Shown piece by piece: positions 45,852 through 61,733 of a stretch of DNA of 64,000 nucleotides. Each line of letters starts with the position of its first letter. The stretch's first letter is position 1. The stretch comes from a virus (taxonomy: Duplodnaviria; Caudoviricetes): positions 136,844 through 200,843 of the IMG/VR virus record IMGVR_UViG_3300024255_001563, one strand, 5' to 3'. A program made the translations under genes and the position numbers. The notes beneath the pieces were generated by a model. That model saw only the letters and a list, made by a program, of their open reading frames with translations, did no database searches and was not told the DNA's origin.

Positions 45852-45904
45852 ACACGCATTTCCTTAGTTATATACGCATATATTTATCTTTTTTAATAGG
45901 TTAT

Positions 45905-46030: not shown

Positions 46031-46053
46031 AAGCCAACAATTGCCACATATAC

Positions 46054-46299
46054 CTACTTCCAGTTTGCATCGGAACTTCCGAGTTGCACTACAATATTTT
46101 CTTTGGCAGTTGAAGATGCAGATAAGATTTTTTCTAGATCGCCTTCTAATCGAGACATTACTTCTCCTAATGTAAAAGCAAGACGCTTTGCAGTATTAAT
46201 ATCTAATTTTACTTCTCTTGCTTTACTAGAATCTGCTGATTTTACTGTAGATATAAATTGTTGTATTGGTAACGTGTTTAATGGTTCGTTAATTGGCAC
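46054..46299 (-). CDS. Hypothetical protein
   Basis: 81-aa ORF overlapping the upstream gene stop. Confidence 0.7.
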   Translation of the reverse strand: MPINEPLNTLPIQQFISTVKSADSSKAREVKLDINTAKRLAFTLGEVMSRLEGDLEKILSASSTAKENIVVQLGSSDANWK

Positions 46300-46759: not shown

Positions 46760-47741
46760 TATCATACCTCGCTTGTAATGGTGGTGCATAATATTGCGCC
46801 TGGTCAGCAACACGTTGCATATCCCACTTAGCACAAAACTTCATAAGACGCATACCTACTTGTGTAATGTCTTTAGGTTCTACGTTTGCAATAGTTGTAT
46901 CAATAATCTCTCTAATGTCTGCAGGTTGTGCAGTCAAGTCACACAATACAACATTGCGATTGTAATCATCTAGTACACGATGTTCTACACCTTCATGATC
47001 AGTCCAGCGTTGTAGCATCATGTTATTCCAGTTGTAGCCTTTTGTACTCTTGTCTTCGTATGCTTCAATAAGACCTACTTTGTTCTTAGTGCCTTTCTTA
47101 CGTACACCAGGGTAAGCACTAAACACGTTGTCACTTGTGTCGCCACGCATACACTTCTCAAACAACATAAAGTCAGGCTGCGGTGCAGGCTTTGCTTCTT
47201 TAGTCTTCTTGTCAATAACAGGCTCTAACTTCTTGTCGTCAAAGTAACCTTCATGTGTAATAATAGTATTACTTACACCATTGTATTGCTTTACATTAGG
47301 TGCAATAAGTTGTGCAAAGTCACCGTCAGTACTAATAATAACATGCTCGTCATTAGGGTGTGCTTGCACCCAGCCAGCAATAAGATCATCTGCTTCTAGT
47401 TGCTTGTGTTGAATAACAGTGCAGTTAGTCTTGTCTGTCATAAAGTTCTTAAACTCATCAAAGATTTCCCAAAACGCTGTATCTTCTTCACTCTCAGTTA
47501 CAGTCATTTTATCACGAGCAACTTTTCTATTACGCTTGTAAGGTTCGTAATAGTCCTTGCGCCAGCTACGACCTTCTAAGCAGATCACAACATGCGAACC
47601 GTCAAAGTCTTGCCAAGCCTTCTTAATGCTGTTAAGAGTAATGTGTAGTGCCATACCTACTTTAGTGTCAATGTCGCCACGTACAACGTGCCGAGCTCTA
47701 AAGAAAGTGTTTGCTGTGTCTACAAGAATGTAAGTAGCCAT
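46749..47741 (-). CDS. rnh: T4 RNase H-like 5'-3' exonuclease (FEN/PIN fold)
   Basis: ILVDTAN, LEGRSWRK..Y..YK.NR, LEADD, ISTDGDF.QL, GDTSDNV. Start placed at MATYILVD. Confidence 0.88.
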   Translation of the reverse strand: MATYILVDTANTFFRARHVVRGDIDTKVGMALHITLNSIKKAWQDFDGSHVVICLEGRSWRKDYYEPYKRNRKVARDKMTVTESEEDTAFWEIFDEFKNFMTDKTNCTVIQHKQLEADDLIAGWVQAHPNDEHVIISTDGDFAQLIAPNVKQYNGVSNTIITHEGYFDDKKLEPVIDKKTKEAKPAPQPDFMLFEKCMRGDTSDNVFSAYPGVRKKGTKNKVGLIEAYEDKSTKGYNWNNMMLQRWTDHEGVEHRVLDDYNRNVVLCDLTAQPADIREIIDTTIANVEPKDITQVGMRLMKFCAKWDMQRVADQAQYYAPPLQARYDNGI

Positions 47742-47742
47742 A

Positions 47743-47829
47743 TTATGAACACCCTGATACACATAATGAGAAGATGTCGCCATTCTGTACGAATGCAACA
47801 AGTATTGTAATGCCTAAAATTTCTAACAT
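47743..47829 (-). CDS. 28-aa hydrophobic small protein, not in the ORF track
   Basis: MLEILGITILVAFVQNGDIFSLCVSGCS; first ORF after a consensus promoter; its stop abuts the rnh start. Confidence 0.5.
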   Translation of the reverse strand: MLEILGITILVAFVQNGDIFSLCVSGCS

Positions 47830-47858
47830 AGTTCTGCCTTTATATAATTTATAGTACT

Positions 47859-47887
47859 ATTGTAACACCAGATCTGGCTGTTGTCAA
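47859..47887 (-). promoter_or_regulatory. Sigma70 promoter with extended -10
   Basis: TTGACA (47887-47882), 17 nt spacer ending TGT, TACAAT (47864-47859). Confidence 0.75.
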
Positions 47888-48283
47888 TCATCCTATTGAA
47901 CTTTTTCCTTTGTCGATTGGTACTACATTGACATAGCCCATTTCTCTATCAGTCGATTGTCCTTCTTCATCTAACATCTGCATTACAATAGTTCTAAACC
48001 ATGCATCAACAATTTGTTCATTAGACTCACCTTTGTACCCAACATCAAGTAATTGTTCGATAAATTCGTTGTTCCAATCGAGCTCAAAGAATCCGTTACG
48101 AATGTTTTCAGGATTAATTTGTGTGTCGAGTACAGCAACCCACGGTTCGCCTGCTTTAGTAGCAGCTTGTTTTTCTGCTTCTAACGCTTCTCGACGTAAG
48201 TCTTCTGAAGTTTTTTCAACTTCAGACTCTTCAATTTTCTTTTTATCACCTGCGTCTCTTGCCAGTTTATTCCACCAACCCAT
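47888..48283 (-). CDS. Hypothetical protein
   Basis: 131 aa; GEPWVAV..NG.FELDWN..F motif; TAATG-coupled. Confidence 0.75.
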   Translation of the reverse strand: MGWWNKLARDAGDKKKIEESEVEKTSEDLRREALEAEKQAATKAGEPWVAVLDTQINPENIRNGFFELDWNNEFIEQLLDVGYKGESNEQIVDAWFRTIVMQMLDEEGQSTDREMGYVNVVPIDKGKSSIG

Positions 48284-48390
48284 TATATTAATCCTTTTTC
48301 TCTAAGTTCTGCATCTAAGTTTTTACGTATTGGAGCCTTCATTGCTTTATCAAGTTTTTCTTGTTGCACTTGATCAAGTGCCCCATGCAT
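48283..48390 (-). CDS. 35-aa small ORF overlapping the end of queE
   Basis: MHGALDQVQQEKLDKAMKAPIRKNLDAELREKGLI; fills the gap and ends in a TAATG junction with the next gene. Confidence 0.4.
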   Translation of the reverse strand: MHGALDQVQQEKLDKAMKAPIRKNLDAELREKGLI

Positions 48391-49333
48391 TTCCGAATAA
48401 GGATATGTGGAGTCTGGGCGTGAATCGCCATCCTTTTTCCATACAGACCTGCGCAACCTCTTGAACGTTGAGGACATACTCTTCCGAGCGTCCCCCAAGC
48501 GGCATACAATATACTGGACACTCAACGCCGACATCACGATATGCTTGCACAGCTCTGCCAGCTTCTTCAATATCTGCACGATCAGCAACAACAAATTTAA
48601 GATAAACATCACTGCCAGCAACAGTGGAATAATTAAGAGCGACACTAGGACGTATAGCGTCCTCCCAAGATTCTCCGCTAACGGATAGCTTTGGCGAACA
48701 CGACCATGTGACTGTAATTCTGTCGCTATCGTTGAGATAGTTGTATAAGTCGTCGTGTAGAACTTGTGTAGTGTTTGTTTCAAATGTGACATTTTTTAAA
48801 TCCTTCATGCGGGGATGTTCGAACAGCTCTACGTAAAGACGTTGCCACGCTAACAACGGTTCACCACCTGTCATAATAAGATGGATATCTTGACCGTTAT
48901 CCATTGTCCACTTACCTTCTGGAGTAAGCGATAGCAAATGTTCAACTACTTCGTCAACTTCTGCAAGTTTGTTAAAGTCTTTAAACTCGGGATAGATACT
49001 TGCATAAGTGTCACACCCTGTATGAATGATAGGCAAGTCTGTAAACTTTTCAGTCTTTTCAACAATGCCATCATCTAGTAAGTCTTTTACTTCTTGATTG
49101 TATCGTTGTCCTGCTTCATGCTTCTCTGCACGACTAGGTTCGTCTTTCCCAAGTCCAAAGTTCATACAACGAAAGTTACAACCGAATGTGCGTAGGAATA
49201 CACTAGGTACTCCTACAAACTTACCTTCGCCTTGTACTGAATAAAATGCTTCTGAATATCTAAGTTTCATAGCTGGCTTTCTGTTAACTGCTTCATAAGA
49301 GGGATAACCTTTTTCAAATACTGGTGCTATCAT
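48374..49333 (-). CDS. queE: 7-carboxy-7-deazaguanine synthase (radical SAM)
   Basis: FYSVQGEG..G.PSVFLR..GCNFRC...CDT, TGGEPL, FETN, SPKL, RFTPRLH. Start probably ATG 49333. Confidence 0.9.
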   Translation of the reverse strand: MIAPVFEKGYPSYEAVNRKPAMKLRYSEAFYSVQGEGKFVGVPSVFLRTFGCNFRCMNFGLGKDEPSRAEKHEAGQRYNQEVKDLLDDGIVEKTEKFTDLPIIHTGCDTYASIYPEFKDFNKLAEVDEVVEHLLSLTPEGKWTMDNGQDIHLIMTGGEPLLAWQRLYVELFEHPRMKDLKNVTFETNTTQVLHDDLYNYLNDSDRITVTWSCSPKLSVSGESWEDAIRPSVALNYSTVAGSDVYLKFVVADRADIEEAGRAVQAYRDVGVECPVYCMPLGGRSEEYVLNVQEVAQVCMEKGWRFTPRLHISLFGNAWGT

Positions 49334-49464
49334 TTGTTTAGCATCCTTGCACAAGTTAGGAATGAATTCTCTTCAAGGCAATCAGTCCATATATGATTTA
49401 AATAAAATCCTATGCCTACAATAAAAATAACTGCGGCAGCACCGTAAATTAATTTCTCAATCAT
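49330..49464 (-). CDS. 44-aa small membrane protein, not in the ORF track
   Basis: MIEKLIYGAAAVIFIVGIGFYLNHIWTDCLEENSFLTCARMLNK; TAATG and ATGA coupling to folE and queE. Confidence 0.6.
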   Translation of the reverse strand: MIEKLIYGAAAVIFIVGIGFYLNHIWTDCLEENSFLTCARMLNK

Positions 49465-50147
49465 TAGCAACTAAACTCCTGTTGTAGTTTAATGTTATCA
49501 AAGAACTCTTTCTTTGTACCTGCGTCATCTTTAAATGCACCACGTAGTACTGTAGTTTGTGTTAAACTACTGTGTGCCATAATGCCACGATTCTCACAAC
49601 AACCATGTGTTGCTTGAATATAAACACCTAAATGTTCTGCATCAGTTGCCGCCTGAATCTCTCTAGCAATATCATTTGCAAGTTCTTCTTGTAGTGTTCC
49701 ACGTCTAGCACACCATTGTGCAATACGTGTGTACTTGCTTAGACCAATTAATTTGTCTGCGGCAATAATACCAATGTATGCAATACCTGCTACTGGCTGG
49801 TGATGATGCGAACACATACTCTTTAGTTCCGAACGCACTACTAACATACCTTCATAACGATCATCGCTGTCGTTTGGAAATGCTGTTGCAGTTGGAGCAG
49901 GGTCATAACGTCCTGCCATAATTTCATTGTAGTACATTTTAGCAAGACGTTTTGCTGTACCTTTAGAGTTAGGATCTTGATATCTATCAATTACAAGTGC
50001 ATCTAGTACACTTTCAAATGCTGTAGTTGCTTCGTCGATAAGTGCTTCTTTGTCACCTTCTTGCAATACTGCACTAATATTGTCGCCAGCCCAGTAACGA
50101 CTCTTTGCCTGTACTAGGCGGGCTTTAATTTCTTCACTTTTACTCAT
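49464..50147 (-). CDS. folE: GTP cyclohydrolase I
   Basis: SMCSHH, IGLSKYTRI..ARR..LQE, HGCCENRG, TTVLRGAF. Confidence 0.95.
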   Translation of the reverse strand: MSKSEEIKARLVQAKSRYWAGDNISAVLQEGDKEALIDEATTAFESVLDALVIDRYQDPNSKGTAKRLAKMYYNEIMAGRYDPAPTATAFPNDSDDRYEGMLVVRSELKSMCSHHHQPVAGIAYIGIIAADKLIGLSKYTRIAQWCARRGTLQEELANDIAREIQAATDAEHLGVYIQATHGCCENRGIMAHSSLTQTTVLRGAFKDDAGTKKEFFDNIKLQQEFSC

Positions 50148-50153
50148 GTGTTT

Positions 50154-50181
50154 CTCCGATGTTTAGGCAGTGGATTGCCGG
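50154..50181 (-). promoter_or_regulatory. Candidate cis-regulatory RNA in the folE leader
   Basis: GGCA-AUCCAC-UGCC hairpin followed by UAAACAUCGGAG; loop UCC is complementary to the SD GGA. Confidence 0.3.
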
Positions 50182-50209
50182 TAGTAATACAATGCACAAT
50201 ATAACTTAT

Positions 50210-50238
50210 ATTATACATTGTATTTAGGTTTTTGTCAA
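50210..50238 (-). promoter_or_regulatory. Consensus sigma70 promoter with an embedded TAAATA
   Basis: TTGACA (50238-50233), 17 nt spacer containing TAAATA (50226-50221), TATAAT (50215-50210). Confidence 0.85.
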
Positions 50239-50444
50239 GCACTAAAATATTTTGTTAACATTTCCATGCGATCGTTAGCAGCAGCCATTTTATCAAGTTC
50301 TTCTTGAATAGCTTCTACAATGTCACTGTGTTCACCAATACCTGTGGCATTGTTCATGTATACCATGATGTTAGTCTTTGCTCTTTCGAGCTCTCCTTCG
50401 GCATGCATACGTGCGGCTTTTACTAATTGTTCTTTCAAAATCAT
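50235..50444 (-). CDS. Small hypothetical protein
   Basis: 69 aa, GGA RBS. Confidence 0.7.
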   Translation of the reverse strand: MILKEQLVKAARMHAEGELERAKTNIMVYMNNATGIGEHSDIVEAIQEELDKMAAANDRMEMLTKYFSA

Positions 50445-50463
50445 TTCCTTTCCTTTATATGAT

Positions 50464-51015
50464 TTAATATTCAGCTACGTTTTCCCAAGGGTAAACTAGC
50501 CAAACATCTTCTTCTGTTTTGTTAATTTCGTGACAAGTGTAACGTACATTGTCAAACTCACTTGCATCGTTGTTTGTTAGAGTAGCAAATCGAACATTGT
50601 TAGCCCAAACACTTGCCCAAGCATTGTCTTCTTGTGGTAAGCAACTTGATTCCCAATCTTGTTTAATCCAGTTAAACGTAGCACCAGTATCGTTAATATC
50701 ATCTACAACAAGAATGTTTTTACGTTTTTTATTATCCCAACGACAGGTTTCTTGTTCTTCTAGTGGAACATATCCAAACGCATCTTCTGACATCCACAAG
50801 TTACTTTCAGGACCCATTTCGTCATCACGTAAACTTACTTTAAGTGCTTCGCAACGAATGCCAGTCATATTACTAATAATAGTAGCAGGTACATTGCCAC
50901 CGCGTGTAAGACCTACAATGTAATCAGGACGCCAGTTGTCAGTGTACATTTGATTAACAATGCTTACGCACATGCGTTCAACATCAGTCCAGCTGTAATA
51001 ATGTTTCTTAATCAT
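50464..51015 (-). CDS. Type I phosphoribosyltransferase (purine PRT-like)
   Basis: IVGLTRGG, PRPP loop ILVVDDINDTGAT, C-terminal WLVYPWE. Confidence 0.85.
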   Translation of the reverse strand: MIKKHYYSWTDVERMCVSIVNQMYTDNWRPDYIVGLTRGGNVPATIISNMTGIRCEALKVSLRDDEMGPESNLWMSEDAFGYVPLEEQETCRWDNKKRKNILVVDDINDTGATFNWIKQDWESSCLPQEDNAWASVWANNVRFATLTNNDASEFDNVRYTCHEINKTEEDVWLVYPWENVAEY

Positions 51016-51200
51016 TTGCCTTCCTTTGAAGATTTTTCTGCTTTAGATAGTTTGTTGTTCCAGGTGTTGTTACTAATGCCTAGTTCGCTTGGCATAGGCT
51101 TTGTTTTGCCTTTAGTAATTTCACCGCCCTTAGCAAGGAACTCTGCCTTCATGCGTTCTAGTTCTTCGTCTTTGGGTTTTGCATCGTGGTTCATGCTCAT
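51012..51200 (-). CDS. Small hypothetical protein
   Basis: 62 aa; EFLAKGGEITK motif; ATGA-coupled. Confidence 0.65.
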   Translation of the reverse strand: MSMNHDAKPKDEELERMKAEFLAKGGEITKGKTKPMPSELGISNNTWNNKLSKAEKSSKEGK

Positions 51201-51218
51201 AGGTAGATTCCTTTATTG

Positions 51219-51611
51219 TTAGAATGGGAAGTCGTTATCAAGCTCCCCTGCTTTTCGTTTGCCTTCATAATCTTGTTTAACCATATCGTATACGCTTTTA
51301 AAGTTGCGCCATACTTTAGACAGCGCTGGATATTCTTTGCACATATTGTCAACTTCTTCTGGGTCAATCATATTATCTAAAACATTAGTATAAGGATATG
51401 TGCTGTTGTTATCTATAGTAATAGTTGAAGACGAAGTGTCTGTGCCACTAATAGTAATATCACTAAGACTAAGTCCACCATCGGTAATGCTATACGTACC
51501 TGTATTACTGCTAATACTATCTAAGTTAATAGTAATATCATCGTCGAGACTAATAGTAAATGTTTCGTTTTCATTCGCCATCTGCAATCGCCTCATATAA
51601 TGCTGCACCAC
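51219..51611 (-). CDS. Hypothetical protein
   Basis: S/T/D-rich N-terminus, C-terminal CKEYPAL..W..FKSVY. Confidence 0.65.
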   Translation of the reverse strand: MVQHYMRRLQMANENETFTISLDDDITINLDSISSNTGTYSITDGGLSLSDITISGTDTSSSTITIDNNSTYPYTNVLDNMIDPEEVDNMCKEYPALSKVWRNFKSVYDMVKQDYEGKRKAGELDNDFPF

Positions 51612-52632
51612 TAAAGAATTCTTTGTTAAGTTTTGTACGTTGCTTTTCTAAACTTACTTGTAAGTCATCAAAGTTTTCCATGTAGTTTACAATTTGTGCA
51701 ACTACTTTATCTCTGTTGTGTAAATATGCATCAAAGTTCTCAGTCCATTCACTTGGATATTTAAACTCAGGCAGTGCCATTTCACCGTAGCTGAGTCTGT
51801 CTGGCACCATAGGAATAGCATCTACTAGAGCACCTTCATACCAACTAATACCTAGTGTTTCTTGTAGGTTAGCACTAAACACAAGTTTAGCTTCACCTAG
51901 TAAGTTATGGTATTCGTTCTTGCTTAATTCCTGTTCTTGGCACACAACAAATTCATATTGTGGTAAACGTTCTTTAAGATCTCTAAAGATATCAACTTGT
52001 TTCTCAGGAGCAACACGATGTGGAAACAAGATCAAATCTCGCTTTTCCATACCCTTGTAGCTAGTTAAACTGTCCTTTAGATATTCCATAGGCCAGCCCA
52101 CACGTTTAATTTTGTCCCAATCAATTACGTAGTCTTCGTCGAATACATCAGTAAACATATCAATATGGAAGTCACTTGCAAAGAAGTTATCATCATAACA
52201 TTCAAACATTGCCATTTCAGCATGTCTTACCCAAGGCTTATCACCTATAAGTCTTCCTAAAAAATCTTGCGGATCATAACTACCTGCATGCCACAAACCA
52301 CCAATGCTAATGTCAACACCCAGTAATTCTGCCATATAGCGTAGTTGAATAACTGTAGGGTTCCAGGCATCGGTATAGAGAAAATAGTCACCGTCTTTAA
52401 CAGTTCCATTGCAGAACATTTCTCCTATCTGTTCGAGTTGTTTTGATTTGTACACATTTGTACCACCAAAGTTAAGGAAAGCCCCAGGCGTTGTAGCCTG
52501 AGGCGTTTCCCCACCGCTAATAACTACAACATCTTCATTTGTAGCTCGTCGCAGTTGCTTTGGAAGATATTCCTTCCATTGCTTAGTATAGCGTGTATCT
52601 ACTGCTTCAATGTCTACAATATGAATAGTCAT
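51571..52632 (-). CDS. GT-B fold glycosyltransferase (GT4-like), candidate DNA-base glycosyltransferase
   Basis: C-domain ILFPHRVAPEKQ and QETLGISWYEG..AIPMV match GT4 motifs; N-domain LNFGG..YFLYTD. Confidence 0.75.
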   Translation of the reverse strand: MTIHIVDIEAVDTRYTKQWKEYLPKQLRRATNEDVVVISGGETPQATTPGAFLNFGGTNVYKSKQLEQIGEMFCNGTVKDGDYFLYTDAWNPTVIQLRYMAELLGVDISIGGLWHAGSYDPQDFLGRLIGDKPWVRHAEMAMFECYDDNFFASDFHIDMFTDVFDEDYVIDWDKIKRVGWPMEYLKDSLTSYKGMEKRDLILFPHRVAPEKQVDIFRDLKERLPQYEFVVCQEQELSKNEYHNLLGEAKLVFSANLQETLGISWYEGALVDAIPMVPDRLSYGEMALPEFKYPSEWTENFDAYLHNRDKVVAQIVNYMENFDDLQVSLEKQRTKLNKEFFSGAALYEAIADGE

Positions 52633-52637
52633 AATTA

Positions 52638-52862
52638 TTATCCTTTGTTGTACTGCTTGCGAGGACGTTGTACAAAGTCTCGCCCGCCGTTACGGGCCTT
52701 TGCTCGTAGCCAACCTTGATACTTTTGATAGGCAATCCAAATCGGTGCATCCTTTTTATACAAGTCTGCCTCGTTAAATACTTTACCTTCAAAGCGACAA
52801 TAGTCACGGTATTGATCAAGATCGTTAAACACTTTATTCACTGCTGGATTAGCAATTGTCAT
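52638..52862 (-). CDS. Small hypothetical protein
   Basis: 74 aa, GAGGA RBS. Confidence 0.7.
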   Translation of the reverse strand: MTIANPAVNKVFNDLDQYRDYCRFEGKVFNEADLYKKDAPIWIAYQKYQGWLRAKARNGGRDFVQRPRKQYNKG

Positions 52863-52877
52863 AATATATTCCTCTTG

Positions 52878-53348
52878 TTATGACTTGGGATAAAAAATAG
52901 AACAGCCATTTTCATTGTCTTCAGCTACGCTGATCTCTACAAAGCGGCCAGGGTACTTTGTAGCGATTTCTTCATACAAGTCATCTGCGATCATTTCGCA
53001 GCTCTTGTGATCCAGCTGTAGTACAGATGTAGAGCTATCTACTTCAGCGTACAACCGTTCCATCCAGCGTTTAAACTGAATGAATTCAATATCGCGATCG
53101 TTGTGAAACACTTCGATGCGAACTTTAAAGTGGAAGATATGACGATGCGGAATGCCTAAGAATGATACATCATCCCAATCGCCGGTTGCTAGTTTAGGAT
53201 CAGTATCTGCGCCTGGGTACATATGTACCCCCTCTTTATTAAAGGTTACCCAAATACTGCGTTCTGCTTTGTTTAGCATGTTTGCTTGTGACATTTTGTC
53301 TTCTTCTCTCATTCTACGTAACATGTACTCATAATAGCGTTCTTGCAT
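52878..53348 (-). CDS. queD: QueD/PTPS-like T-fold protein (6-carboxytetrahydropterin synthase-like)
   Basis: HRHIFHFKVRIEV, SCEMIA, VAEDNENG; lies in a folE/queE context. Confidence 0.65.
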   Translation of the reverse strand: MQERYYEYMLRRMREEDKMSQANMLNKAERSIWVTFNKEGVHMYPGADTDPKLATGDWDDVSFLGIPHRHIFHFKVRIEVFHNDRDIEFIQFKRWMERLYAEVDSSTSVLQLDHKSCEMIADDLYEEIATKYPGRFVEISVAEDNENGCSIFYPKS

Positions 53349-53355
53349 TGTATTA

Positions 53356-53384
53356 AGTATACTTTCACTTTAGAACTTTGTCAA
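53356..53384 (-). promoter_or_regulatory. Sigma70 promoter
   Basis: TTGACA (53384-53379), 17 nt spacer, TATACT (53361-53356). Confidence 0.8.
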
Positions 53385-53886
53385 GGCCATATTTGCTCCA
53401 GTCCGTAAATTTATTACGGTCCATCAAGTCATGCAGGCTATGGCACCAAACGCCTGGATTACTTGCTTTAAAATCTTTGTCGTCGATTTTAATCATTGTA
53501 TTATAATTCCATTGTGCAACATACGGAACTACAACACGAAGTTGCGGAATAAAGTTATCACTTTCAACAAGTCCACCGTCTAAAAACCATTCAAGGTTAA
53601 TAGTGCTTGGAATGTCTAAACTACAAAGGATACCTTGATCCGTAAACGCACGAATCATTAGATCCCAATCTTCAAACTCATCTGCTGACACAGGATGATA
53701 ACTGTGATTAGCACCAAAGAAGATATGTTCGCATTGTTGATATGTGTAATGCATCATAATTTCATTATAGTCTTGAACACCAGTAACAAACAGTGTCTTC
53801 ATTCCAAACGCAGGAGTCTTTTCAACTTCTACGCCTGTAAAGAATATTGGAGTATCGCTTACGCCACTTTCATAATTACGTTTCAT
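53365..53886 (-). CDS. Hypothetical protein in the deazaguanine module
   Basis: 173 aa; HIFFGANHS, KIDD.DF..SNPGVWCH motif; function unrecognised. Confidence 0.75.
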   Translation of the reverse strand: MKRNYESGVSDTPIFFTGVEVEKTPAFGMKTLFVTGVQDYNEIMMHYTYQQCEHIFFGANHSYHPVSADEFEDWDLMIRAFTDQGILCSLDIPSTINLEWFLDGGLVESDNFIPQLRVVVPYVAQWNYNTMIKIDDKDFKASNPGVWCHSLHDLMDRNKFTDWSKYGLDKVLK

Positions 53887-54425
53887 TAAAATGCTCCAAA
53901 GAGATCGTTTAACTGCTTGCGTGAACTAGACATGCCAAATAAGTTTTCTGCCTTATTAAATTTTACACGCAACTTCCAACTGTTACTTTTAACTTTTTCT
54001 AATATTAAATGTTCAGACTTAGGAGCATTTGTGCCATTCGACAATTGATCTGAAAGTTCGGCTAGTTCTTCTTCAATAACATCTTGAATTGGTCCAAAGT
54101 CAATCTTTCTTACTTCTTTAAGAACGCCGCCTTCGTGAATATGAAGATTCCATTTTTTAAACTTGTCTAAAAATATGCTACCATCAGTAGCATATATGTT
54201 ATCAAATGTACTCGAAGCAACACTAATGTGTCCTTTCTTAGTTTTGTCCCAACTTTTAATTTCAAGATCTAGATCAGGAATATCATTTCCAGGACCGTAG
54301 TTAGTTTCTATACCCCGTTCATCATAGGCTCTTTGTATAGCCACTCCGTAACCACCGTCACCAAACCCGCTCGCCGGTGACACATAACCAGATTCTATTA
54401 TAGGAATTACTCGATTTACTTGCAT
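53886..54425 (-). CDS. PD-(D/E)xK restriction endonuclease-like protein, tentative
   Basis: G..IQRAY..GIETNY...IPDLDLEIKSW fits PD-Xn-E-X-K. Confidence 0.45.
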   Translation of the reverse strand: MQVNRVIPIIESGYVSPASGFGDGGYGVAIQRAYDERGIETNYGPGNDIPDLDLEIKSWDKTKKGHISVASSTFDNIYATDGSIFLDKFKKWNLHIHEGGVLKEVRKIDFGPIQDVIEEELAELSDQLSNGTNAPKSEHLILEKVKSNSWKLRVKFNKAENLFGMSSSRKQLNDLFGAF

Positions 54426-54640
54426 TATTCTAAACCTTTTTGTACCAAATATGCATTGATACGATGCATTTCATCTTTTAGATAAAGTTTCATAGTTTTC
54501 ATTCTACGAACTTCGTCTGTTATTGTCATATTATTATACTTGGTTTCGAGCTCTGTGTCAAGCTCTCTATGTTTCCGTTGTAGTTCGTTGTAGTGTGCAA
54601 GAAGTTTATCTCTTTCATCTTCATAGTTGCTCATCTTCAA
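54425..54640 (-). CDS. Small coiled-coil protein (DUF465/YdcH-like)
   Basis: L...HRELD.E....RMK..KL.LKDE pattern. Confidence 0.55.
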   Translation of the reverse strand: MKMSNYEDERDKLLAHYNELQRKHRELDTELETKYNNMTITDEVRRMKTMKLYLKDEMHRINAYLVQKGLE

Positions 54641-56243
54641 GTTCCTCTAATTTAGTCTCGTCTAGTTCTTCAACAGGTTCAATAGGTTCTTCTACATCAA
54701 ACAGTGCATCAAAGAATGTCGAACTGTTTACTGTCTTTTTACCAATTGCGCCACGTGTTCCAGGAATAGCCATCCAAAACTTTGAATATTTCTCGATTGT
54801 TTCTAATGACTCTTCTCGAGTTGTCTTTGAAAAGATTTCGTCTATGACATCTCTAACTAGTACTCTGTCAAATCGTTCTTGTACAAGCATCTTAGGTATA
54901 ACACCTGCATCATACTGTCTGTTAGCTTCTTGTACAGCATTGATGTGCGTCCATACGTTATGACCCATTTGAATAGCATAGCTAAATGAATCCCAGCTTG
55001 TTGAGTCTTTCTTGCGTACAATAGGATTACCTTCAGTATCTAATACAGGTTGATCATGTTTGTCTAGTTCAACTTCGCCTGCACTTACTTTAGGTACGCC
55101 AATCTTGTTGCGATCGCCTTTTTTGTATGTGCAAATATCACTTACTAGCAATCCATCAGTTAATGGAGAGTCTTCAAATACTTTAAAAATACCATCTTGC
55201 GTAGTAGCATCTTTGAATGTACGTGTGTCAGTAGCATACTTTAGTTCGTCTACACTAGGCAACATTCGATATGTCCACTTGCCTCGATCTGGTGTTTCAT
55301 TAGAAGTGTATACTTGTCCATTAGCTGTTGCAAGGAACGGACTAGCACAGTCAAAGGTAACCATAAATGTTGGGTTGTAGTACTTGCGTACAGCTCGTTG
55401 TACGTCTGTTAGCAGTGTAGCCCACTCTAGTTTACTTGTACCTAGAAAGTGCATTACATCGTGTAAGCCGCTTTGTAAGAGCCCATCGTAGTGAAGTGCA
55501 ACAATGCGTTTGAGTAACAAATGCACATCGCACATATTCTGTCCACCCATTGACCATCCTTCAAAAGGACGTTCGTACTTGGTAGGATCGCAGTAATCTT
55601 TCATCTGCTCGTACCAGTCATCTGCGTCTGCGTGATTCTCACCTTGTAGAACGTTAAGGAACTTACATGCTCCTGTCCTATGTTTCATCCAGTAATCGTT
55701 GTTGATGCGTGTTGCTGCCACTGCTTCGTCATATGTACTAATACCAGTAGCTTTGGCACCTGCAGGTGAACGTGCCACCCAAGCCGGAATATCAAGGATC
55801 ATACCATAGTCCATGTAAGCATCCATCCAACGCAATACACCATCACGCTTTTTCTGTGCTTTAGGACAGTTAGGATCTTTCCAGTCACCTTCCCAAACAC
55901 CCTTACCAATCTGGAAACCGCCACTATCACCTAGTAACCAAGTGTTCTCTTTATCTCTATTACGCACCATATCTTCTTTAGGTACGTGTTTAGTTGTATC
56001 TAAATCAGCGTGTCCTGCAGAATAGAGCGTCCACTTGTATGTGAACGCTCCTTCTTTGGAGTTTAAGTAATTAAGACTTTCTACATTGTTTTGAAAGTTT
56101 GCCGGAATACGATCGTCAGGAACATAAGGACCATTAACAGGGTCAGGATAGCGTTGCTTGCCCACGTAAGTAGCATAGAAGCCACTCAGTGCGGGCAAGA
56201 AGTGTGCATAATCTTGTTGTGCTTCTGTAAGGTCTTTGTTCAT
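54621..56243 (-). CDS. TGT-fold guanine transglycosylase (DpdA or queuine tRNA-ribosyltransferase-like)
   Basis: GDSGGFQI, ILDIP, VLQG, GWSMGG, MHFLG, TFDCASP. Start placed at MNKDL (56243). Confidence 0.8.
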   Translation of the reverse strand: MNKDLTEAQQDYAHFLPALSGFYATYVGKQRYPDPVNGPYVPDDRIPANFQNNVESLNYLNSKEGAFTYKWTLYSAGHADLDTTKHVPKEDMVRNRDKENTWLLGDSGGFQIGKGVWEGDWKDPNCPKAQKKRDGVLRWMDAYMDYGMILDIPAWVARSPAGAKATGISTYDEAVAATRINNDYWMKHRTGACKFLNVLQGENHADADDWYEQMKDYCDPTKYERPFEGWSMGGQNMCDVHLLLKRIVALHYDGLLQSGLHDVMHFLGTSKLEWATLLTDVQRAVRKYYNPTFMVTFDCASPFLATANGQVYTSNETPDRGKWTYRMLPSVDELKYATDTRTFKDATTQDGIFKVFEDSPLTDGLLVSDICTYKKGDRNKIGVPKVSAGEVELDKHDQPVLDTEGNPIVRKKDSTSWDSFSYAIQMGHNVWTHINAVQEANRQYDAGVIPKMLVQERFDRVLVRDVIDEIFSKTTREESLETIEKYSKFWMAIPGTRGAIGKKTVNSSTFFDALFDVEEPIEPVEELDETKLEELEDEQL

Positions 56244-56244
56244 A

Positions 56245-56985
56245 TTACTTGCTCTGAGCTGGAAGAATATAATCGTATTTTGCCATGCCCGAATCAACAC
56301 TAATCATCATAGCACCTTGATCTGAAATACTCATAGTTAAGTCACCGCTTAAATTAAGAACTGCTTGCACTTGTGCTACAGGCCAACTCCACGTGTGTTG
56401 TAAGCTACCTTCTACTGCATTTTGGAATACAAACTCGCCTGCGTGTGTACTAGCATCACCAAAGCTAAACACTAGATCAGTTACACCGCCTGTTGCTTCA
56501 GTACTTACGTTAAACGTAGGCTCTTCGTTGTGTGCAGCACTCATTAGTTTCATACGTGCAATAGCTGCCATTGAAGGTTGAAACTCTACATTCCAACTTG
56601 CGCCTTTGAACTTTACAGTCTTTAGCTTTTCTTCGATAATTGCTTTATTCATAAAGCGGTAATCATTTTGGAAGTCGCCTGCGGCATTTTCAAAGTGAAT
56701 GTGTGTTGGAATAGTTTCACCGTTACGCTCTGCTTCTACAACTTCAATCTTAGCATCTTTTTGATACTCGGGATTTTTAAGATGCAAGCTAAGTTTGTCT
56801 AGATTAGGCATACCAAATGTACCTTTAAACTCTGTAACAGAGTTATGTGTTTCAGCTGACAAGATTACACTACGGTCCTCTGCCATTGAATCAATTTGTG
56901 TGCCTTCATCGTTGCTTACTTTTACAAGCGACAAAAAGCCTAGTGCGTGAGTATGTGCTACTACGTCTTGTAAGATGTCTTTCAT
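56245..56985 (-). CDS. Sliding clamp, T4 gp45-like, putative
   Basis: 246 aa near polB; two-domain beta-rich pattern with FGMPNL..L..HL and C-terminal YDYILPA. Called from context and size. Confidence 0.6.
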   Translation of the reverse strand: MKDILQDVVAHTHALGFLSLVKVSNDEGTQIDSMAEDRSVILSAETHNSVTEFKGTFGMPNLDKLSLHLKNPEYQKDAKIEVVEAERNGETIPTHIHFENAAGDFQNDYRFMNKAIIEEKLKTVKFKGASWNVEFQPSMAAIARMKLMSAAHNEEPTFNVSTEATGGVTDLVFSFGDASTHAGEFVFQNAVEGSLQHTWSWPVAQVQAVLNLSGDLTMSISDQGAMMISVDSGMAKYDYILPAQSK

Positions 56986-57749
56986 ACGTTTTCTCCTGTT
57001 ATAATGTTTATTATATTACTATTTTCTTGATTTGTCAAGAACTTTTCTACTGTGTATTTAGGTTTGAAGCCAAGTGCCTTCATTTTTTCCATATTAGCAC
57101 AAGTCCAGTTCCGCTCTCCTGGGGTATTTAGACGAACCGGTGCTAACGGTGCCAAGTCTTGGATCCTAACTGGATGCCCCGTACCAATATCGATTGTACC
57201 ATTGATATGTGTTTTCTTGATTAATATCTCAATTGCATCTAGTACGTCCTCTAGATGAATAAAATCTCTATAATGCCTAGTTGCATATTCTAGTGTACCA
57301 TTGCGTAGTTTATTAAAGAACATGTTCTCTCTAGGACAATTATCGCTGTACACTGTATGAAAACGCATACCTAGTGTGTCTGGATACCGTCCTGCTAGTT
57401 CTTCCATGATGTACTTACTCGCCGCATAAGGGTTCAAATCGGGCTCGTAAGCACTCGAACTGCTTGCATATAGTATACGTGTGTCTTGGTAGCGATCAAA
57501 CAGTCTACGTGTTGCTTCTACGTTGTTGTTCCAATAACCTGCAGGGTCTTTTAAACTTTCACGTACACCGCTTTTACCTGCTAAGTGAATAACAAGATCG
57601 ATGTTGTCTTGCCATATATTATATGTAAGCAAATCAAACTGAGGGCCATTCTTTAGATCAACACCGAATACAGTATGTCCGTGTTTTACAAGTCTAGCAT
57701 ATAGTGCTGAGCCTATAAACCCGTGACTACCTGTTAATAAAATTTTCAT
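56982..57749 (-). CDS. NAD-dependent epimerase/dehydratase (extended SDR)
   Basis: ILLTGSHGFIG, VIHLAG, YASSSS, YAASK. Confidence 0.9.
   Translation of the reverse strand: MKILLTGSHGFIGSALYARLVKHGHTVFGVDLKNGPQFDLLTYNIWQDNIDLVIHLAGKSGVRESLKDPAGYWNNNVEATRRLFDRYQDTRILYASSSSAYEPDLNPYAASKYIMEELAGRYPDTLGMRFHTVYSDNCPRENMFFNKLRNGTLEYATRHYRDFIHLEDVLDAIEILIKKTHINGTIDIGTGHPVRIQDLAPLAPVRLNTPGERNWTCANMEKMKALGFKPKYTVEKFLTNQENSNIINIITGENV
57010..57038 (-). promoter_or_regulatory. Consensus sigma70 promoter
   Basis: TTGACA (57038-57033), 17 nt spacer, TATAAT (57015-57010), inside the 3' end of the epimerase gene. Confidence 0.8.
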
Positions 57750-58456
57750 ACTGCTTTTCCACTGTCTTGGAATACTTCTAAGTATTCTTTAGTCTGTGCC
57801 CATCCAGTAACTTTTCTATGATTCTTTACTACTTTGGCTAACGGATAGTCATTGCCGCCTTCGTAAATAGCATCACCAAAGAACCACAATTGATCTCTTA
57901 CTGTATTAAAGTCTTCAATGATTTGACTCTTGTCTGAACCTCTAGGTGAAATATCAATTCCTGTTTCGCCACCTACTTTTGCTGATAAGTCTGGAAACAT
58001 TATATTAAACGCATTTGCAATATTATTACGTTCTTTCTCTTTAGTGTCATACTCTACATACAACTTGCGTTCGCCTAATGTTGCATTGCGTCCTACAATA
58101 CTAAAGTTCACCATACCCGGGCGTTCCTCAATATGATTGCCAGTGCGTAAAGGAAACTGACTTTCATACTCACAACTGATTAAAAATGTTCTTGCTAAGT
58201 CCGGTAGTGTCCATTCATTTGTTCGAATGTTTTCTTCGCCTTTCCAAACATCATTTCCGTTGCATTGATATACACGGCTACATCTGTTGTATATTTTCTC
58301 ACCTATCTGTTCTACAGTTTTAGATTTGTCACTACCAGTAACTAAGTATACTTCATTACCTAAACAGAAATTGTAAAAGAACTCTTTAAATTCCTCATTA
58401 ATAGGTTGTCTACTAGGTGTTAGTGTACCATCTACATCAAATATAAACTTATTCAT
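57746..58456 (-). CDS. HAD-IIB phosphomannomutase-like enzyme (eukaryote PMM type)
   Basis: FDVDGTLT, LVTGSD, IEERPGMVNFSIVGR, VGGETGIDISP, FFGD....GGNDY. Confidence 0.85.
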   Translation of the reverse strand: MNKFIFDVDGTLTPSRQPINEEFKEFFYNFCLGNEVYLVTGSDKSKTVEQIGEKIYNRCSRVYQCNGNDVWKGEENIRTNEWTLPDLARTFLISCEYESQFPLRTGNHIEERPGMVNFSIVGRNATLGERKLYVEYDTKEKERNNIANAFNIMFPDLSAKVGGETGIDISPRGSDKSQIIEDFNTVRDQLWFFGDAIYEGGNDYPLAKVVKNHRKVTGWAQTKEYLEVFQDSGKAV

Positions 58457-58863
58457 TTATTCTCCGACACTCTTTTGCGCAAATCACTTGAACTAAATCT
58501 GTGGTCACGCTTGTTAAAATGTAAGTCTATATCTCGTCGTCTACAGATATCTTTACCTGTAAAGTCTTTGTCGCGATACTCCTCTCCTAATATTCTAACA
58601 TCAATATTATACATTGTCAAGATATCTTCTAGGTCTGCTTCTGTACCATAAGGAATAATCTCATCAACATACTTAACTGCTTTGAGTTGAGTGTAACGCT
58701 CCACAACAGTTTGTATAGGAGCGTTCTTTTCTGCACGATCAACGCTTGGATCAACCTGTAATCCACAAATTAAATAATCGCATTGATCCTTTGCTTCACG
58801 TAACATTTGTACATGTCCGGAATGCAAAAGGTCAAACGTACTACATGTAAATCCTACGTTCAT
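58453..58863 (-). CDS. Cytidylyltransferase (TagD, glycerol-3-phosphate cytidylyltransferase-like)
   Basis: FDLLHSGH (HxGH), ICGLQ.D, YVDEII, R.HRFSSS.LR. Confidence 0.88.
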   Translation of the reverse strand: MNVGFTCSTFDLLHSGHVQMLREAKDQCDYLICGLQVDPSVDRAEKNAPIQTVVERYTQLKAVKYVDEIIPYGTEADLEDILTMYNIDVRILGEEYRDKDFTGKDICRRRDIDLHFNKRDHRFSSSDLRKRVSENK

Positions 58864-58982
58864 TCCTCATCCTCATAGTAGAGCTGATCTTTTAGTTGTT
58901 TTAACTTTTCAATAACTTCTTCAATAGTATTTAGGTCTTGCTCGTTTTCTGTATCAATTTCTATTTCTAATTTCACTTTCAT
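58860..58982 (-). CDS. 40-aa acidic small protein, not in the ORF track
   Basis: MKVKLEIEIDTENEQDLNTIEEVIEKLKQLKDQLYYEDEE; ATGA-coupled to the cytidylyltransferase. Confidence 0.6.
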   Translation of the reverse strand: MKVKLEIEIDTENEQDLNTIEEVIEKLKQLKDQLYYEDEE

Positions 58983-58987
58983 ATATT

Positions 58988-61657: not shown

Positions 61658-61670
61658 TCATTTCTCCTTC

Positions 61671-61692: not shown

Positions 61693-61733
61693 TTCTACAT
61701 GCACACATTTCTGCTTGTGCGTACTAATATATA

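What the first reader, a model, noticed from the sequence alone, without database searches (positions are those of the whole stretch)
48374..58863. 7-deazaguanine DNA-modification module interleaved with a glycosyltransferase, PRTase, nuclease and sugar-activation genes: possible new hypermodified base
Seen: one minus-strand run downstream of polB: cytidylyltransferase, PMM-like, epimerase, clamp, TGT/DpdA-like, DUF465-like, PD-(D/E)xK-like, hypothetical, QueD-like, GT-B, PRTase, FolE, QueE. No QueC, QueF or Gat-QueC lies inside it. Established: FolE, QueD and QueE make CDG from GTP, and phage DpdA proteins exchange deazaguanines into DNA to block restriction. Inference: the inserted base (CDG or a derivative) is further decorated with a sugar or polyol by the GT-B enzyme. 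I know of no characterised glycosylated deazaguanine in phage DNA.
Basis: partly seen in the sequence, partly recalled or inferred. Interest (0 to 1): 0.82.

Follow-up and report, generated by a model that had tools for sequence, protein, structure and literature searches.

The report
Glycosyltransferase-linked deazaguanine DNA-modification module
An uncultured marine jumbo phage carries the genes that swap guanine in its DNA for a 7-deazaguanine. A sugar-transferring enzyme sits among them and travels with the base-swapping enzyme in many unrelated phages and bacteria, so the final base may carry a sugar, which I found no report of.

Summary
The minus-strand gene run is real, with four corrections. 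The "QueD-like" gene is a DpdL, carrying the LxxxHRHxF signature of the proposed CDG decarboxylase. A true QueD is absent from the 200-kb contig, though close relatives carry one about 60 kb from the module. The "nuclease" is an unverified ORF and a strain-specific insertion. The "clamp" call is unverified.

The 540-559-aa protein is a TGT-superfamily enzyme with the catalytic motifs. It represents a long DpdA subfamily distinct from phiST DpdA3. The 353-aa protein is a GT-B, GT4-like glycosyltransferase with donor-binding residues intact.

The GT lies within 4 kb of the DpdA-like gene in the window clade, PA5oct-like phages, ACP17, X1 and eight of ten sampled metagenomic lineages. The same holds for 27 of 28 bacterial-genome loci with enough flank. 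Each of those 28 loci also has DpdL or a YhhQ-like queuosine-precursor importer.

PA5oct DNA is reported to resist G-containing restriction sites, and its base is unidentified.

The sugar-nucleotide trio is specific to this clade and variable within it.

I read this as a QueC-less deazaguanine DNA module whose product is probably glycosylated. The chemistry is untested.

This scan has reported the same pairing on other genomes.

The parts
58453..58863 (-). Cytidylyltransferase-family nucleotidyltransferase (136 aa). First gene of a clade-specific sugar or polyol activation trio.
   Evidence: PF01467 E 1.5e-15. Best solved relatives are ethanolamine-phosphate cytidylyltransferase (E 2.5e-23) and TagD (E 1.3e-13). 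Weak NCBIfam hits to rfaE domain II and TagD, far below cut-off. Present in 49 of 82 related loci; absent from PA5oct.
57746..58456 (-). Eukaryote-type (HAD-IIB) phosphomannomutase-like enzyme (236 aa).
   Evidence: PF03332 E 1.7e-25. Solved phosphomannomutases match at E 2e-29. Missing in some close relatives.
56982..57749 (-). Short extended-SDR NDP-sugar epimerase/dehydratase-like enzyme (255 aa).
   Evidence: PF01370 E 3.7e-24. Best solved relatives are dTDP-glucose 4,6-dehydratase and GalE. Variant contigs in seawater runs skip 56985->58079.
56245..56985 (-). 246-aa conserved protein between polB and the DpdA-like gene. Possibly a sliding clamp; not verified.
   Evidence: phrog_12062, unknown function, E 6e-31. 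Homologues hold the same position in PA5oct ('structural protein') and Phosso ('sliding clamp beta'). No sequence match to solved structures.
54621..56243 (-). DpdA-like DNA-guanine transglycosylase of the TGT superfamily, long subfamily. 540 aa from the ATG; the ORF is open to 56300.
   Evidence: Invariant D-S-G-G-x-Q, LD.IP Asp, GG, HxLG and a FD(C/S) Asp in alignment A2. The family profile hits solved TGTs at E 3e-5. Atlas neighbours are viral TGT-like and DpdA clusters. 35% identical to the PA5oct homologue. Only weakly related to phiST DpdA3 (hhalign probability 39%).
54425..54640 (-). DUF465 small protein; conserved in the clade; role unknown.
   Evidence: PF04325 E 4e-8. Found in 67 of 82 related loci.
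53886..54425 (-). 179-aa ORF of no known family. A strain-specific insertion, not a module component.
   Evidence: 0 of 82 related loci. No Pfam, PHROG, NCBIfam or phage tblastn hit. Only weak Atlas leads (0.83-0.87) to viral restriction-endonuclease-like clusters. A contig in run X4 joins 53845 to 54427 with 39 other bases in between.
53365..53886 (-). 173-aa protein of unknown function. Conserved in the clade and in ACP17 only.
   Evidence: 74 of 82 related loci, plus the ACP17 161-aa ORF next to its DpdA. No family or fold assignment.
52878..53348 (-). DpdL: a QueD-like T-fold protein, the proposed 7-carboxy-7-deazaguanine decarboxylase.
   Evidence: LGIPHRHIF matches the published DpdL signature LxxxHRHxF. 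Invariant H42, H68, H70, H82, D84-R85, S-C-E-M and E143-D144 in A3. phrog_17812. Weak profile hit to the PTPS homologue PH0634. 30.6% identical to the phiST DpdL region.
52638..52862 (-). 74-aa ORF between DpdL and the GT; conserved in the clade; unknown.
   Evidence: 76 of 82 related loci. No family hit.
51571..52632 (-). GT-B (GT4-like) glycosyltransferase. The component that sets this module apart.
   Evidence: AF2 model pLDDT 95.7. Z 26.5 to sucrose-phosphate synthase and 25-26 to BshA and MshA. 34 of 45 family members hit PF00534. R206 and E266 invariant, K211 and E258 at 90% or more in A1, with E258 and E266 spaced as EX7E. Gene-neighbourhood evidence.
50464..51015 (-). 6-oxopurine phosphoribosyltransferase (183 aa).
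   Evidence: PF00156 E 2.9e-8. Xanthine PRT NCBIfam E 2.8e-10. Best solved relatives are yeast HGPRT (E 2.7e-8) and archaeal purine PRTs. A homologue lies in the module of PA5oct, L088/89, L094-96 and L111.
49464..50147 (-). FolE, GTP cyclohydrolase I.
   Evidence: PF01227 E 1.4e-38.
48374..49354 (-). QueE, the radical-SAM CDG synthase. The true start is probably the ATG near 49270.
   Evidence: phrog_2076 E 5e-50. Five NCBIfam QueE models, below cut-off. The overlapping ORF 48283-48792 lies in another frame and has no hits.
50210..50238 (-). Perfect sigma-70 consensus (TTGACA-17-TATAAT) just upstream of folE. Similar sites lie at 57010-57038 and 54533-54561 (both 12/12) and at 53356-53384 (11/12, upstream of dpdL).
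   Evidence: The total number of promoter-like sites is not above shuffles. The three perfect matches all lie on the coding strand.

Best explanation
The region is a QueC-less, DpdL-type 7-deazaguanine DNA-modification module in the replication gene block of an uncultured marine jumbo phage. The phage shares polB...RNaseH synteny with Pseudomonas phage PA5oct.

Proposed pathway:
1. FolE, a QueD encoded elsewhere in the genome and QueE turn GTP into 7-carboxy-7-deazaguanine (CDG). The enzyme identities are shown by homology.
2. DpdL converts CDG, probably by decarboxylation to 7-deazaguanine (taken from the literature, where it is itself unproven).
3. The long DpdA-like transglycosylase exchanges guanine in double-stranded phage DNA for the deazaguanine (inferred from family, motifs and context).
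4. The GT4-like glycosyltransferase is an integral part of this system. It most likely adds a sugar to the deazaguanine, either to the free base before insertion or to the base already in DNA (inferred from gene linkage only).
5. The 6-oxopurine PRTase most likely salvages the released guanine to GMP, feeding GTP back to FolE (inference).
6. In this clade a PMM-like enzyme, a cytidylyltransferase-family enzyme and an SDR may supply the sugar donor (inference).

The biological role is protection of phage DNA from restriction.
For: Gene identities.

GT fold and intact donor-site residues.

Linkage of the GT with the DpdA-like gene:
- The window clade, 80 loci.
- PA5oct-like phages, ordered DpdA-GT-DpdL...PRT-QueE.
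- ACP17, ordered QueD-FolE-p173-DpdA-GT-DpdL-QueE.
- X1.
- Eight of ten sampled metagenomic lineages at 27-45% identity.
- 27 of 28 bacterial-genome loci with at least 2.5 kb on both sides of the GT.

Phosso has both genes, but about 170 kb apart; there the GT lies next to DpdL.

Each of those 28 loci also has DpdL (17) or a YhhQ-like queuosine-precursor importer directly upstream of the GT (all 11 without DpdL).

Among the five DpdL-encoding isolate phages searched whole, GT and the long DpdA-like gene are present together in X1. Both are absent from RHph_I1_18, phiST, Bakedbeans and Ahp1.

Experimental background:
- dpdL plus dpdA of ACP17, expressed without the GT, gave no dDG in E. coli. 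The authors suggested that other unknown enzymes are needed (PMC10516641).

No ThyA-family hydroxymethylase candidate is in this contig or in ACP17.
Against: No chemistry is shown. 7-Deazaguanine has no hydroxyl, amino-alkyl or carboxyl handle at C7, so a DpdL step followed by O- or N-glycosylation is chemically awkward.

phiST replaces all its G with plain dDG without any such GT.

The closest structural relatives of the GT act on small molecules, not DNA. The GT is strongly acidic (pI 4.65), though the DpdA-like protein is acidic too.

One GT-family lineage (L109/L110) has no deazaguanine gene within 8 kb. Vibrio phage 2.275.O has the long DpdA-like gene with QueF, a queuosine-biosynthesis gene and an amidotransferase-like gene, but no GT.

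QueD is missing from this incomplete contig (CheckV estimate 57%).
Confidence: 0.55

Rival explanations
1. The DNA carries plain 2'-deoxy-7-deazaguanosine as in phiST. The GT serves another acceptor (a protein, a host glycan or another base), or it is a non-glycosylating partner of this DpdA subfamily, in the way DpdB assists bacterial DpdA.
For: phiST makes dDG with DpdL and no GT. 7-Deazaguanine lacks an obvious acceptor group. The structural neighbours of the GT are small-molecule GT4 enzymes.
Against: A GT with an unrelated acceptor would not be expected to stay within 4 kb of the DpdA-like gene across about 11 phage lineages and 27 of 28 bacterial loci. The donor-binding R/K and EX7E residues are conserved, which argues for a working transferase. 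No hydroxymethyl-pyrimidine pathway travels with it.
Confidence: 0.2
2. The sugar is transient. The GT glycosylates a free deazaguanine intermediate (for solubility, for recognition by the DpdA-like enzyme, or as a leaving group), and the sugar is not present in mature DNA.
For: The best structural matches (sucrose-phosphate synthase, BshA, MshA) act on small acidic or phosphorylated acceptors. In bacterial loci the GT is coupled to a base importer.
Against: No hydrolase that would remove the sugar is conserved in the module. This is pure inference.
Confidence: 0.1
3. Nucleotide route. The PRTase converts CDG or 7-deazaguanine to a ribonucleotide, as purine PRTases do in toyocamycin and tubercidin biosynthesis (own knowledge). 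The base then enters DNA through dNTP synthesis and the polymerase, and the DpdA-like enzyme is secondary.
For: A 6-oxopurine PRTase recurs inside the module in at least five lineages.
Against: The PRTase is missing from ACP17, X1, Phosso and most bacterial loci, while the DpdA-like gene is nearly always present. Cui et al. argue that all known phage deazaguanines are inserted after replication. Guanine salvage explains the PRTase more simply.
Confidence: 0.07
4. The TGT-like enzyme modifies tRNA or a protein, as the TGT-family Cap10 does in type IV CBASS deazaguanylation (bioRxiv 10.1101/2025.04.06.647259, seen), and not DNA.
For: The TGT superfamily includes tRNA and protein-modifying members. 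The substrate was not tested here.
Against: The gene sits between polB/clamp-like and RNaseH genes in several phage families. The ACP17 member is treated as a DpdA by Cui et al.. PA5oct DNA resists G-site restriction enzymes. The window protein lacks the CxCxxC zinc motif that only two family members retain.
Confidence: 0.05

Closest known systems
DpdL/DpdA3 system of Cellulophaga phage phiST (dDG replaces all dG; Cui, Hutinet et al., NAR 2023, PMC10516641)
   Same: FolE, QueD and QueE without QueC. A DpdL with the LxxxHRHxF signature. A TGT-superfamily enzyme next to replication genes.
   Different: phiST has a short (259-aa) DpdA3 that is only marginally related to the long DpdA-like family here (hhalign probability 39%). 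It carries MazG and an ATPase. It has no GT and no PRTase.
Pseudomonas phage PA5oct / MIJ3 (Wroclawvirus) DNA modification
   Same: The same synteny: polB, clamp-like, DpdA-like (35% identity), GT (44%), DpdL (62%), PRTase, QueE, RNaseH. Its DNA is reported to resist G-site restriction enzymes.
   Different: PA5oct lacks the sugar-nucleotide trio, p173 and p179. Its FolE is not within the 19-kb stretch read, and its two PTPS-family genes lie about 50 kb away. The modified base of PA5oct has not been identified in the papers I could read.
Phage DpdA1/DpdA2 systems inserting dPreQ0, dADG, dG+ or dPreQ1 (phages 9g, iggy and others)
   Same: Post-replicative exchange of guanine for a 7-deazaguanine made from GTP; an anti-restriction role.
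   Different: Those use QueC and often QueF or Gat-QueC. This module has none of them and adds DpdL and a GT.
T4 alpha/beta-glucosyltransferases acting on 5-hydroxymethylcytosine DNA
   Same: Phage-encoded glycosyltransferases. Beta-GT has the GT-B fold (own knowledge). They add a sugar to a modified base after replication.
   Different: No sequence match to any DNA-GT Pfam family. T4 GTs are not among the 50 best structural matches shown. No hydroxymethylase partner is present. The base concerned would be a purine analogue.
Bacterial Dpd system (DpdA/DpdB/DpdC plus restriction genes; PMC10164549)
   Same: Chromosomal islands with a DpdA-type transglycosylase that uses cellular deazaguanine precursors.
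   Different: The bacterial loci found here pair the long DpdA-like gene with the GT and a YhhQ-like importer, plus an unassigned 600-850-aa protein. No match to PADLOC models.

Membership tests
Phage 7-deazaguanine DNA-modification (Dpd) systems | TGT-superfamily transglycosylase with the catalytic Asp residues and the deazaguanine pocket (DSGG, LD, QG, GG, FD motifs) | tested here: met
   Invariant D125-S-G-G-x-Q130, D170, G248, H284, G287 and D317 in A2. The profile aligns these to solved TGTs at E 3e-5.
Phage 7-deazaguanine DNA-modification (Dpd) systems | GTP-to-CDG enzymes FolE, QueD and QueE | tested here: inconclusive
   FolE and QueE are present. QueD is absent from the 200-kb contig. 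It is present about 60 kb from the module in two close relatives, and the contig is about 57% complete.
Phage 7-deazaguanine DNA-modification (Dpd) systems | A 7-deazaguanine derivative is present in virion DNA | not testable with these tools
   Only indirect evidence: restriction resistance of the related PA5oct (PMC12191111).
DpdL-type (phiST-like) dDG pathway | DpdL with LxxxHRHxF replacing the QueD motif CxxxHGH | tested here: met
   LGIPHRHIF in the 156-aa protein. H68 and H70 invariant, R69 in at least 90% of rows in A3.
DpdL-type (phiST-like) dDG pathway | No QueC, QueF or Gat-QueC | tested here: met
   No PF06508 match in the 200 kb, and none in the module by Pfam. The genome is incomplete.
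DpdL-type (phiST-like) dDG pathway | Transglycosylase of the DpdA3 subfamility (phiST CGPG_00065 type) | tested here: not met
   hhalign of A2 against phiST gp042: probability 39%, and DSGGFQ is not conserved there. The family HMM and profile find nothing in the phiST genome.
GT-B / GT4-like glycosyltransferases | Two Rossmann-like domains (GT-B fold) | tested here: met
   Model pLDDT 95.7. Z 22-26.5 over 290-320 residues to GT4, GT5 and GT20 structures.
GT-B / GT4-like glycosyltransferases | Donor-site residues: Arg/Lys for the diphosphate and the EX7E motif | tested here: met
   R206 and E266 invariant, K211 and E258 in at least 90% of rows, in A1 and A5. Their roles are assigned by analogy with GT4 enzymes (own knowledge).
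GT-B / GT4-like glycosyltransferases | Pfam Glycos_transf_1 match above the curated cut-off | tested here: inconclusive
   The window protein has no hit. 34 of 45 family members match at E up to 0.1, best 6.5e-7.
T4-type DNA glucosyltransferases | Sequence or closest-fold likeness to T4 alpha- or beta-GT, and a hydroxymethyl-pyrimidine-forming partner | tested here: inconclusive
   No Pfam hit. Not among the 50 rows shown. No ThyA-family gene in this contig or in ACP17.
tRNA-guanine transglycosylase (tRNA-modifying TGT) | C-terminal zinc site (CxCxxC...H) and a match to PF01702 | tested here: not met
   No Pfam hit. The window protein has no CxCxxC; only L088 and L093 relatives keep such a motif.
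6-oxopurine phosphoribosyltransferases | PRTase fold with a PRPP loop; closest relatives are HGPRT or XPRT | tested here: met
   PF00156. Yeast HGPRT E 2.7e-8, with the VVDD.ndT loop aligned.

The most novel reading that the evidence does not exclude
Phages of this type, and a set of alphaproteobacterial genomic islands, place a sugar-bearing 7-deazaguanine in DNA. The sugar could be a C-glycoside at the nucleophilic C7 left free by DpdL, or a glycoside on another position shared by all deazaguanines. The long DpdA subfamily and its GT partner would be the minimal machinery. This would be the first naturally glycosylated purine analogue described in DNA.
Probability: 0.45. Interest if true: 0.85.

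Novelty: new variant of a known kind. Interest (0 to 1): 0.7.

Why it matters
The natural DNA glycosylations I know of sit on hydroxymethylated pyrimidines. A sugar on a guanine substitute would add a new chemical class of DNA hypermodification. It would also bring a new substrate class for type IV restriction and glycosylase defences, and new enzymes for DNA labelling.

The phage group is very abundant in seawater. More than 8000 near-identical GT proteins were found, and the stretch was found in 24 seawater or marine sequencing runs. The same gene set is present in phages already in culture (PA5oct, ACP17, X1), so the prediction can be tested at once.

PA5oct has been studied as a candidate phage against P. 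aeruginosa (PMC13282480), and its DNA modification is still unidentified.

The bacterial loci suggest a so far undescribed host-side DNA-modification system built from the same pair.

Tried and rejected
- Megablast of the region against isolate phages: no match.
- AF2 of the GT from a single sequence: pLDDT 37, unusable. Repeated with an alignment.
- Complex prediction of GT with DpdL: no verdict; not used as evidence.
- Nanopore runs holding the stretch, to look for G-specific basecalling errors: none was listed. All runs listed are Illumina contigs.
- RNA-library contigs (X4) match the strain exactly, but contigs cannot show transcription.
- p173: no Pfam, PHROG or NCBIfam hit. Atlas leads of 0.84 or less to glycoside-hydrolase fragments were rejected as noise. 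The Phosso 'glycosylase', L091:43-546 and L094:559-1089 are not homologues.
- p179: only weak Atlas leads to restriction-endonuclease clusters. The nuclease call stays unproven.
- Clamp-like protein: no sequence hit to solved structures.
- Rfam on 44000-64000: nothing, so no known preQ1 riboswitch upstream of folE.
- Net charge of the GT as a test for DNA binding: not discriminating, because the DpdA-like protein and polB are acidic too.
Repeated with 10 rows.
- Whole-contig check of the L109 exception: the record is not held.
- Supplementary tables of Cui et al.: not held.
- PADLOC: no known defence-system model fits the bacterial or the phage proteins.
- Literature searches for a glycosylated deazaguanine found none. 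The library is incomplete.

Full report
WHAT IS THERE

The window is the last 64 kb of a 200,843-bp IMG/VR virus contig that CheckV rates about 57% complete. From polB (58988-61657) down to a 5'-3' exonuclease/RNaseH gene (46749-47801), all genes lie on the minus strand.

- a cytidylyltransferase-family enzyme
- a eukaryote-type HAD phosphomannomutase-like enzyme
- an extended SDR
- DUF465
- a PRTase
- FolE
- QueE

Four genes had no family hit and needed other evidence: the 559-aa 'TGT-like' protein, the 353-aa 'GT-B', the 156-aa 'QueD-like' protein and the 179-aa 'nuclease'.

THE TRANSGLYCOSYLASE

An alignment of the 559-aa protein with seven relatives (15-36% identity) has 15 invariant columns. 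They include D-S-G-G-x-Q, the Asp of an LD.IP motif, a GG, an HxLG and an Asp in FD(C/S).

A profile of this alignment finds solved tRNA-guanine transglycosylases at E 3e-5. DSGGfQ, LnvlQG and GwavGG align to the TGT catalytic and base-binding motifs. Atlas neighbours are viral TGT-like and DpdA clusters.

The gene probably starts at the ATG at 56243. Two relatives keep a CxCxxC zinc motif that the window protein has lost.

The family is only marginally related to the short DpdA3 of phiST (hhalign probability 39%). Vibrio phage 2.275.O has a member of the same long family in the same polB/clamp-like position. There it sits with QueF, a queuosine-biosynthesis gene, an amidotransferase-like gene and a YhhQ-type transporter. 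This supports a DNA-deazaguanine role for the family as a whole.

THE 'QueD-LIKE' GENE IS DpdL

The 156-aa protein contains LGIPHRHIF. Cui, Hutinet et al. (PMC10516641) define DpdL, their proposed CDG decarboxylase, by the change of the QueD motif CxxxHGH to LxxxHRHxF.

Twenty-one homologues keep the three His residues, D-R, S-C-E-M and E-D invariant. The family profile weakly matches the PTPS homologue PH0634.

No true QueD or QueC is in the 200 kb. Two close relatives carry a PTPS gene about 60 kb from their module, and PA5oct has two.

THE GLYCOSYLTRANSFERASE

With a 45-sequence alignment, AlphaFold gives a model of pLDDT 95.7. It is a GT-B fold. The best matches are sucrose-phosphate synthase (Z 26.5), BshA (25-26), MshA, GlgM and PglA.

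Thirty-four of 45 family members match Pfam Glycos_transf_1. R206 and E266 are invariant, and K211 and E258 are kept in at least 90% of rows. These positions correspond to the diphosphate-binding pair and the EX7E motif of GT4 enzymes (roles assigned from own knowledge).

So it looks like a working NDP-sugar transferase. Its acceptor cannot be read from the fold.

LINKAGE, THE CENTRAL RESULT

The GT family is large. It has 1168 representatives at the 50%-identity cluster level with E up to 1e-3, and more than 8000 near-identical environmental copies.

Wherever I could read context, with one exception, the GT sat beside the long DpdA-like gene, or the contig ended first. The cases are:
- 80 loci of the window clade
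- PA5oct-like phages
- ACP17
- X1
- eight of ten metagenomic lineages at 27-45% identity

Of the other two metagenomic lineages, L111 is a 3-kb contig that ends beside the GT. The exception is L109/L110, with no deazaguanine gene within 8 kb.

Phosso has both genes, but about 170 kb apart; there the GT lies next to DpdL. In BUDD and BCSR5 the GT lies 1.5-3 kb from DpdL by tblastn coordinates, and their DpdA-like gene was not examined.

A scan of species-representative bacterial and archaeal genomes gave 42 loci. Of the 28 with at least 2.5 kb on both sides of the GT, 27 have the DpdA-like gene within 4 kb and 17 have DpdL. Only five have FolE or QueE nearby.

Sixteen alphaproteobacterial chromosomal loci have a small membrane-protein gene directly upstream of the GT. 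The genera include Ochrobactrum, Pelagibacterium, Devosia, Azospirillum, Methylobacterium, Aurantimonas, Shimia and Sulfitobacter. The gene matches Vut_1 and the queuosine-precursor transporter model, at weak scores near or below the cut-offs. All 11 loci without DpdL have it.

Hence every well-flanked bacterial locus combines the GT with a source of deazaguanine (DpdL or an importer), and all but one also have the DpdA-like gene.

The converse does not hold. DpdL occurs without the GT in phiST, RHph_I1_18, Bakedbeans and Ahp1, and these four also lack the long DpdA-like gene.

The tightest pair is therefore GT plus long DpdA-like, not GT plus DpdL.

EXPERIMENTAL BACKGROUND FROM PAPERS

[quoted passage not shown] The authors infer a modified G. 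PA5oct is also targeted by END nucleases, which they propose sense hypermodified DNA. The base itself was not identified (PMC12191111).
- Cui et al. expressed ACP17 dpdL and dpdA in E. coli and found no dDG. [quoted passage not shown] The GT lies between those two ACP17 genes.
- I found no paper describing a glycosylated deazaguanine.

ACCESSORY GENES

PRTase. It is a 6-oxopurine type, closest to yeast HGPRT and archaeal purine PRTs. It recurs in the module in PA5oct, L088/89, L094-96, L111 and several phage contigs binned into MAGs. It is absent from ACP17, X1, Phosso and the chromosomal bacterial loci. I read it as salvage of the guanine freed by base exchange, back to GMP and GTP, which is the FolE substrate. 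A role in making a deazapurine nucleotide is the rival reading.

Sugar trio. It consists of the PMM-like enzyme, the cytidylyltransferase-family enzyme (closest solved relatives: ethanolamine-phosphate and glycerol-3-phosphate cytidylyltransferases) and the SDR. It is present only in this clade. Some relatives and co-occurring variants lack parts of it. It may supply a donor, but it is not a core part.

p179. It has no homologue in 82 related loci. A variant contig replaces exactly this ORF with 39 bases. It is a strain-specific insertion of unknown function.

p173. It is shared only with ACP17.

MECHANISM

Shown by homology: FolE, QueE, DpdL, a TGT-type transglycosylase, a GT4-like transferase and a purine PRTase.

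Inferred: GTP goes to CDG; DpdL removes the carboxyl group; the DpdA-like enzyme swaps G in DNA for the product; the GT adds a sugar before or after insertion.

The bacterial loci pair the GT and the DpdA-like gene with an importer and no DpdL. The acceptor position is therefore probably one shared by several deazaguanines, not the C7 side chain alone. A C-glycoside at the electron-rich C7 of 7-deazaguanine is a chemically conceivable option for the DpdL-containing systems. This is speculation.

The small-molecule bias of the structural neighbours slightly favours glycosylation of the free base followed by insertion.

VERDICT

It is a deazaguanine DNA module, and the GT belongs to it. Whether a sugar ends up on the base in DNA is untested.
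- It is a new variant of a known kind of system.
- Earlier follow-ups in this scan reached the same reading on other genomes. I repeated the linkage test independently.
- What this report adds: coupling to the DpdA subfamily rather than to DpdL; the importer-linked bacterial form; and the p179 and sugar-trio polymorphisms.

Noticed in passing
window 53845-54427: The 179-aa ORF is an insertion/deletion polymorphism in the natural population. A contig from run X4 joins 53845 to 54427 with 39 other bases, and contigs of run X1 diverge exactly at 54427.
   Followed up: partly
window 56985-58085: Seawater contigs skip 56985->58079 and 56748->58085, which covers the SDR and part of the PMM-like gene. 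Some related loci lack the PMM-like gene or the SDR. The sugar-nucleotide trio is therefore variable within the clade.
   Followed up: partly
window 57010-57038, 54533-54561, 50210-50238 (minus strand): Three perfect TTGACA-17-TATAAT sigma-70 consensus sites on the coding strand, plus 11/12 sites at 53356-53384, 58592-58620 and 47859-47887. They suggest host-polymerase (early) transcription of the module.
   Followed up: no
L120-L144 (bacterial genome contigs, e.g. L121 Ochrobactrum sp. MYb379, L138 Shimia ponticola): Chromosomal islands with DpdA-like, YhhQ-like importer and GT genes, with or without DpdL. An unassigned 600-850-aa protein has homologues in 13 of these loci. Neighbours include GmrSD, an integrase and an ABC-3C component. 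No PADLOC model fits. This may be an undescribed bacterial DNA-modification system.
   Followed up: partly
L106 (Vibrio phage 2.275.O, MG592671.1 330216-332006): A 596-aa member of the same long DpdA-like family, after polB-like and clamp-like genes. It sits with QueF, a queuosine-biosynthesis gene, an amidotransferase-like gene, FolE and a vitamin-uptake-type transporter, and has no GT or DpdL.
   Followed up: partly
L088 6094-9153, L093 2132-3431: In two GT-carrying lineages a radical-SAM/SPASM protein sits inside the module between FolE and DpdL. In L088 a PrmA-like methyltransferase and a 373-aa unknown protein sit there too. This hints at further tailoring.
   Followed up: no
L103 7215-8396 (Vibrio phage Bakedbeans gp176): Here DpdL is the C-terminal part of a protein of about 390 aa whose N-terminal half gives a second, partial DpdL-like match. 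It may be a tandem T-fold form.
   Followed up: no
L090 3335-3730: This GT-linked DpdL homologue has LAQEHGHTF, that is HGH and not HRH. The Arg of the published signature is therefore not universal.
   Followed up: no
L113 (PBPT01000016.1, 335,231 bp, labelled a Neomarinimicrobiota MAG contig): It has the same clamp-like, DpdA, p173, DpdL, GT, PRT, FolE, QueE order at 77% GT identity. It is probably a near-complete genome of a related jumbo phage binned into a MAG. Contigs labelled Legionellales, Methanobacteriota and Pacearchaeota look the same, so these labels give no host.
   Followed up: no
G001 190177-191037, G002 110858-111718 (close relatives): Both relatives and PA5oct have a ThyA-family gene with a very strong match (258-337 bits). 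The own contig has none at E 0.01 or better.
   Followed up: no
window 48283-48792 (minus strand): A 169-aa ORF overlaps queE in another frame and has no family hit. It is probably not a gene.
   Followed up: partly
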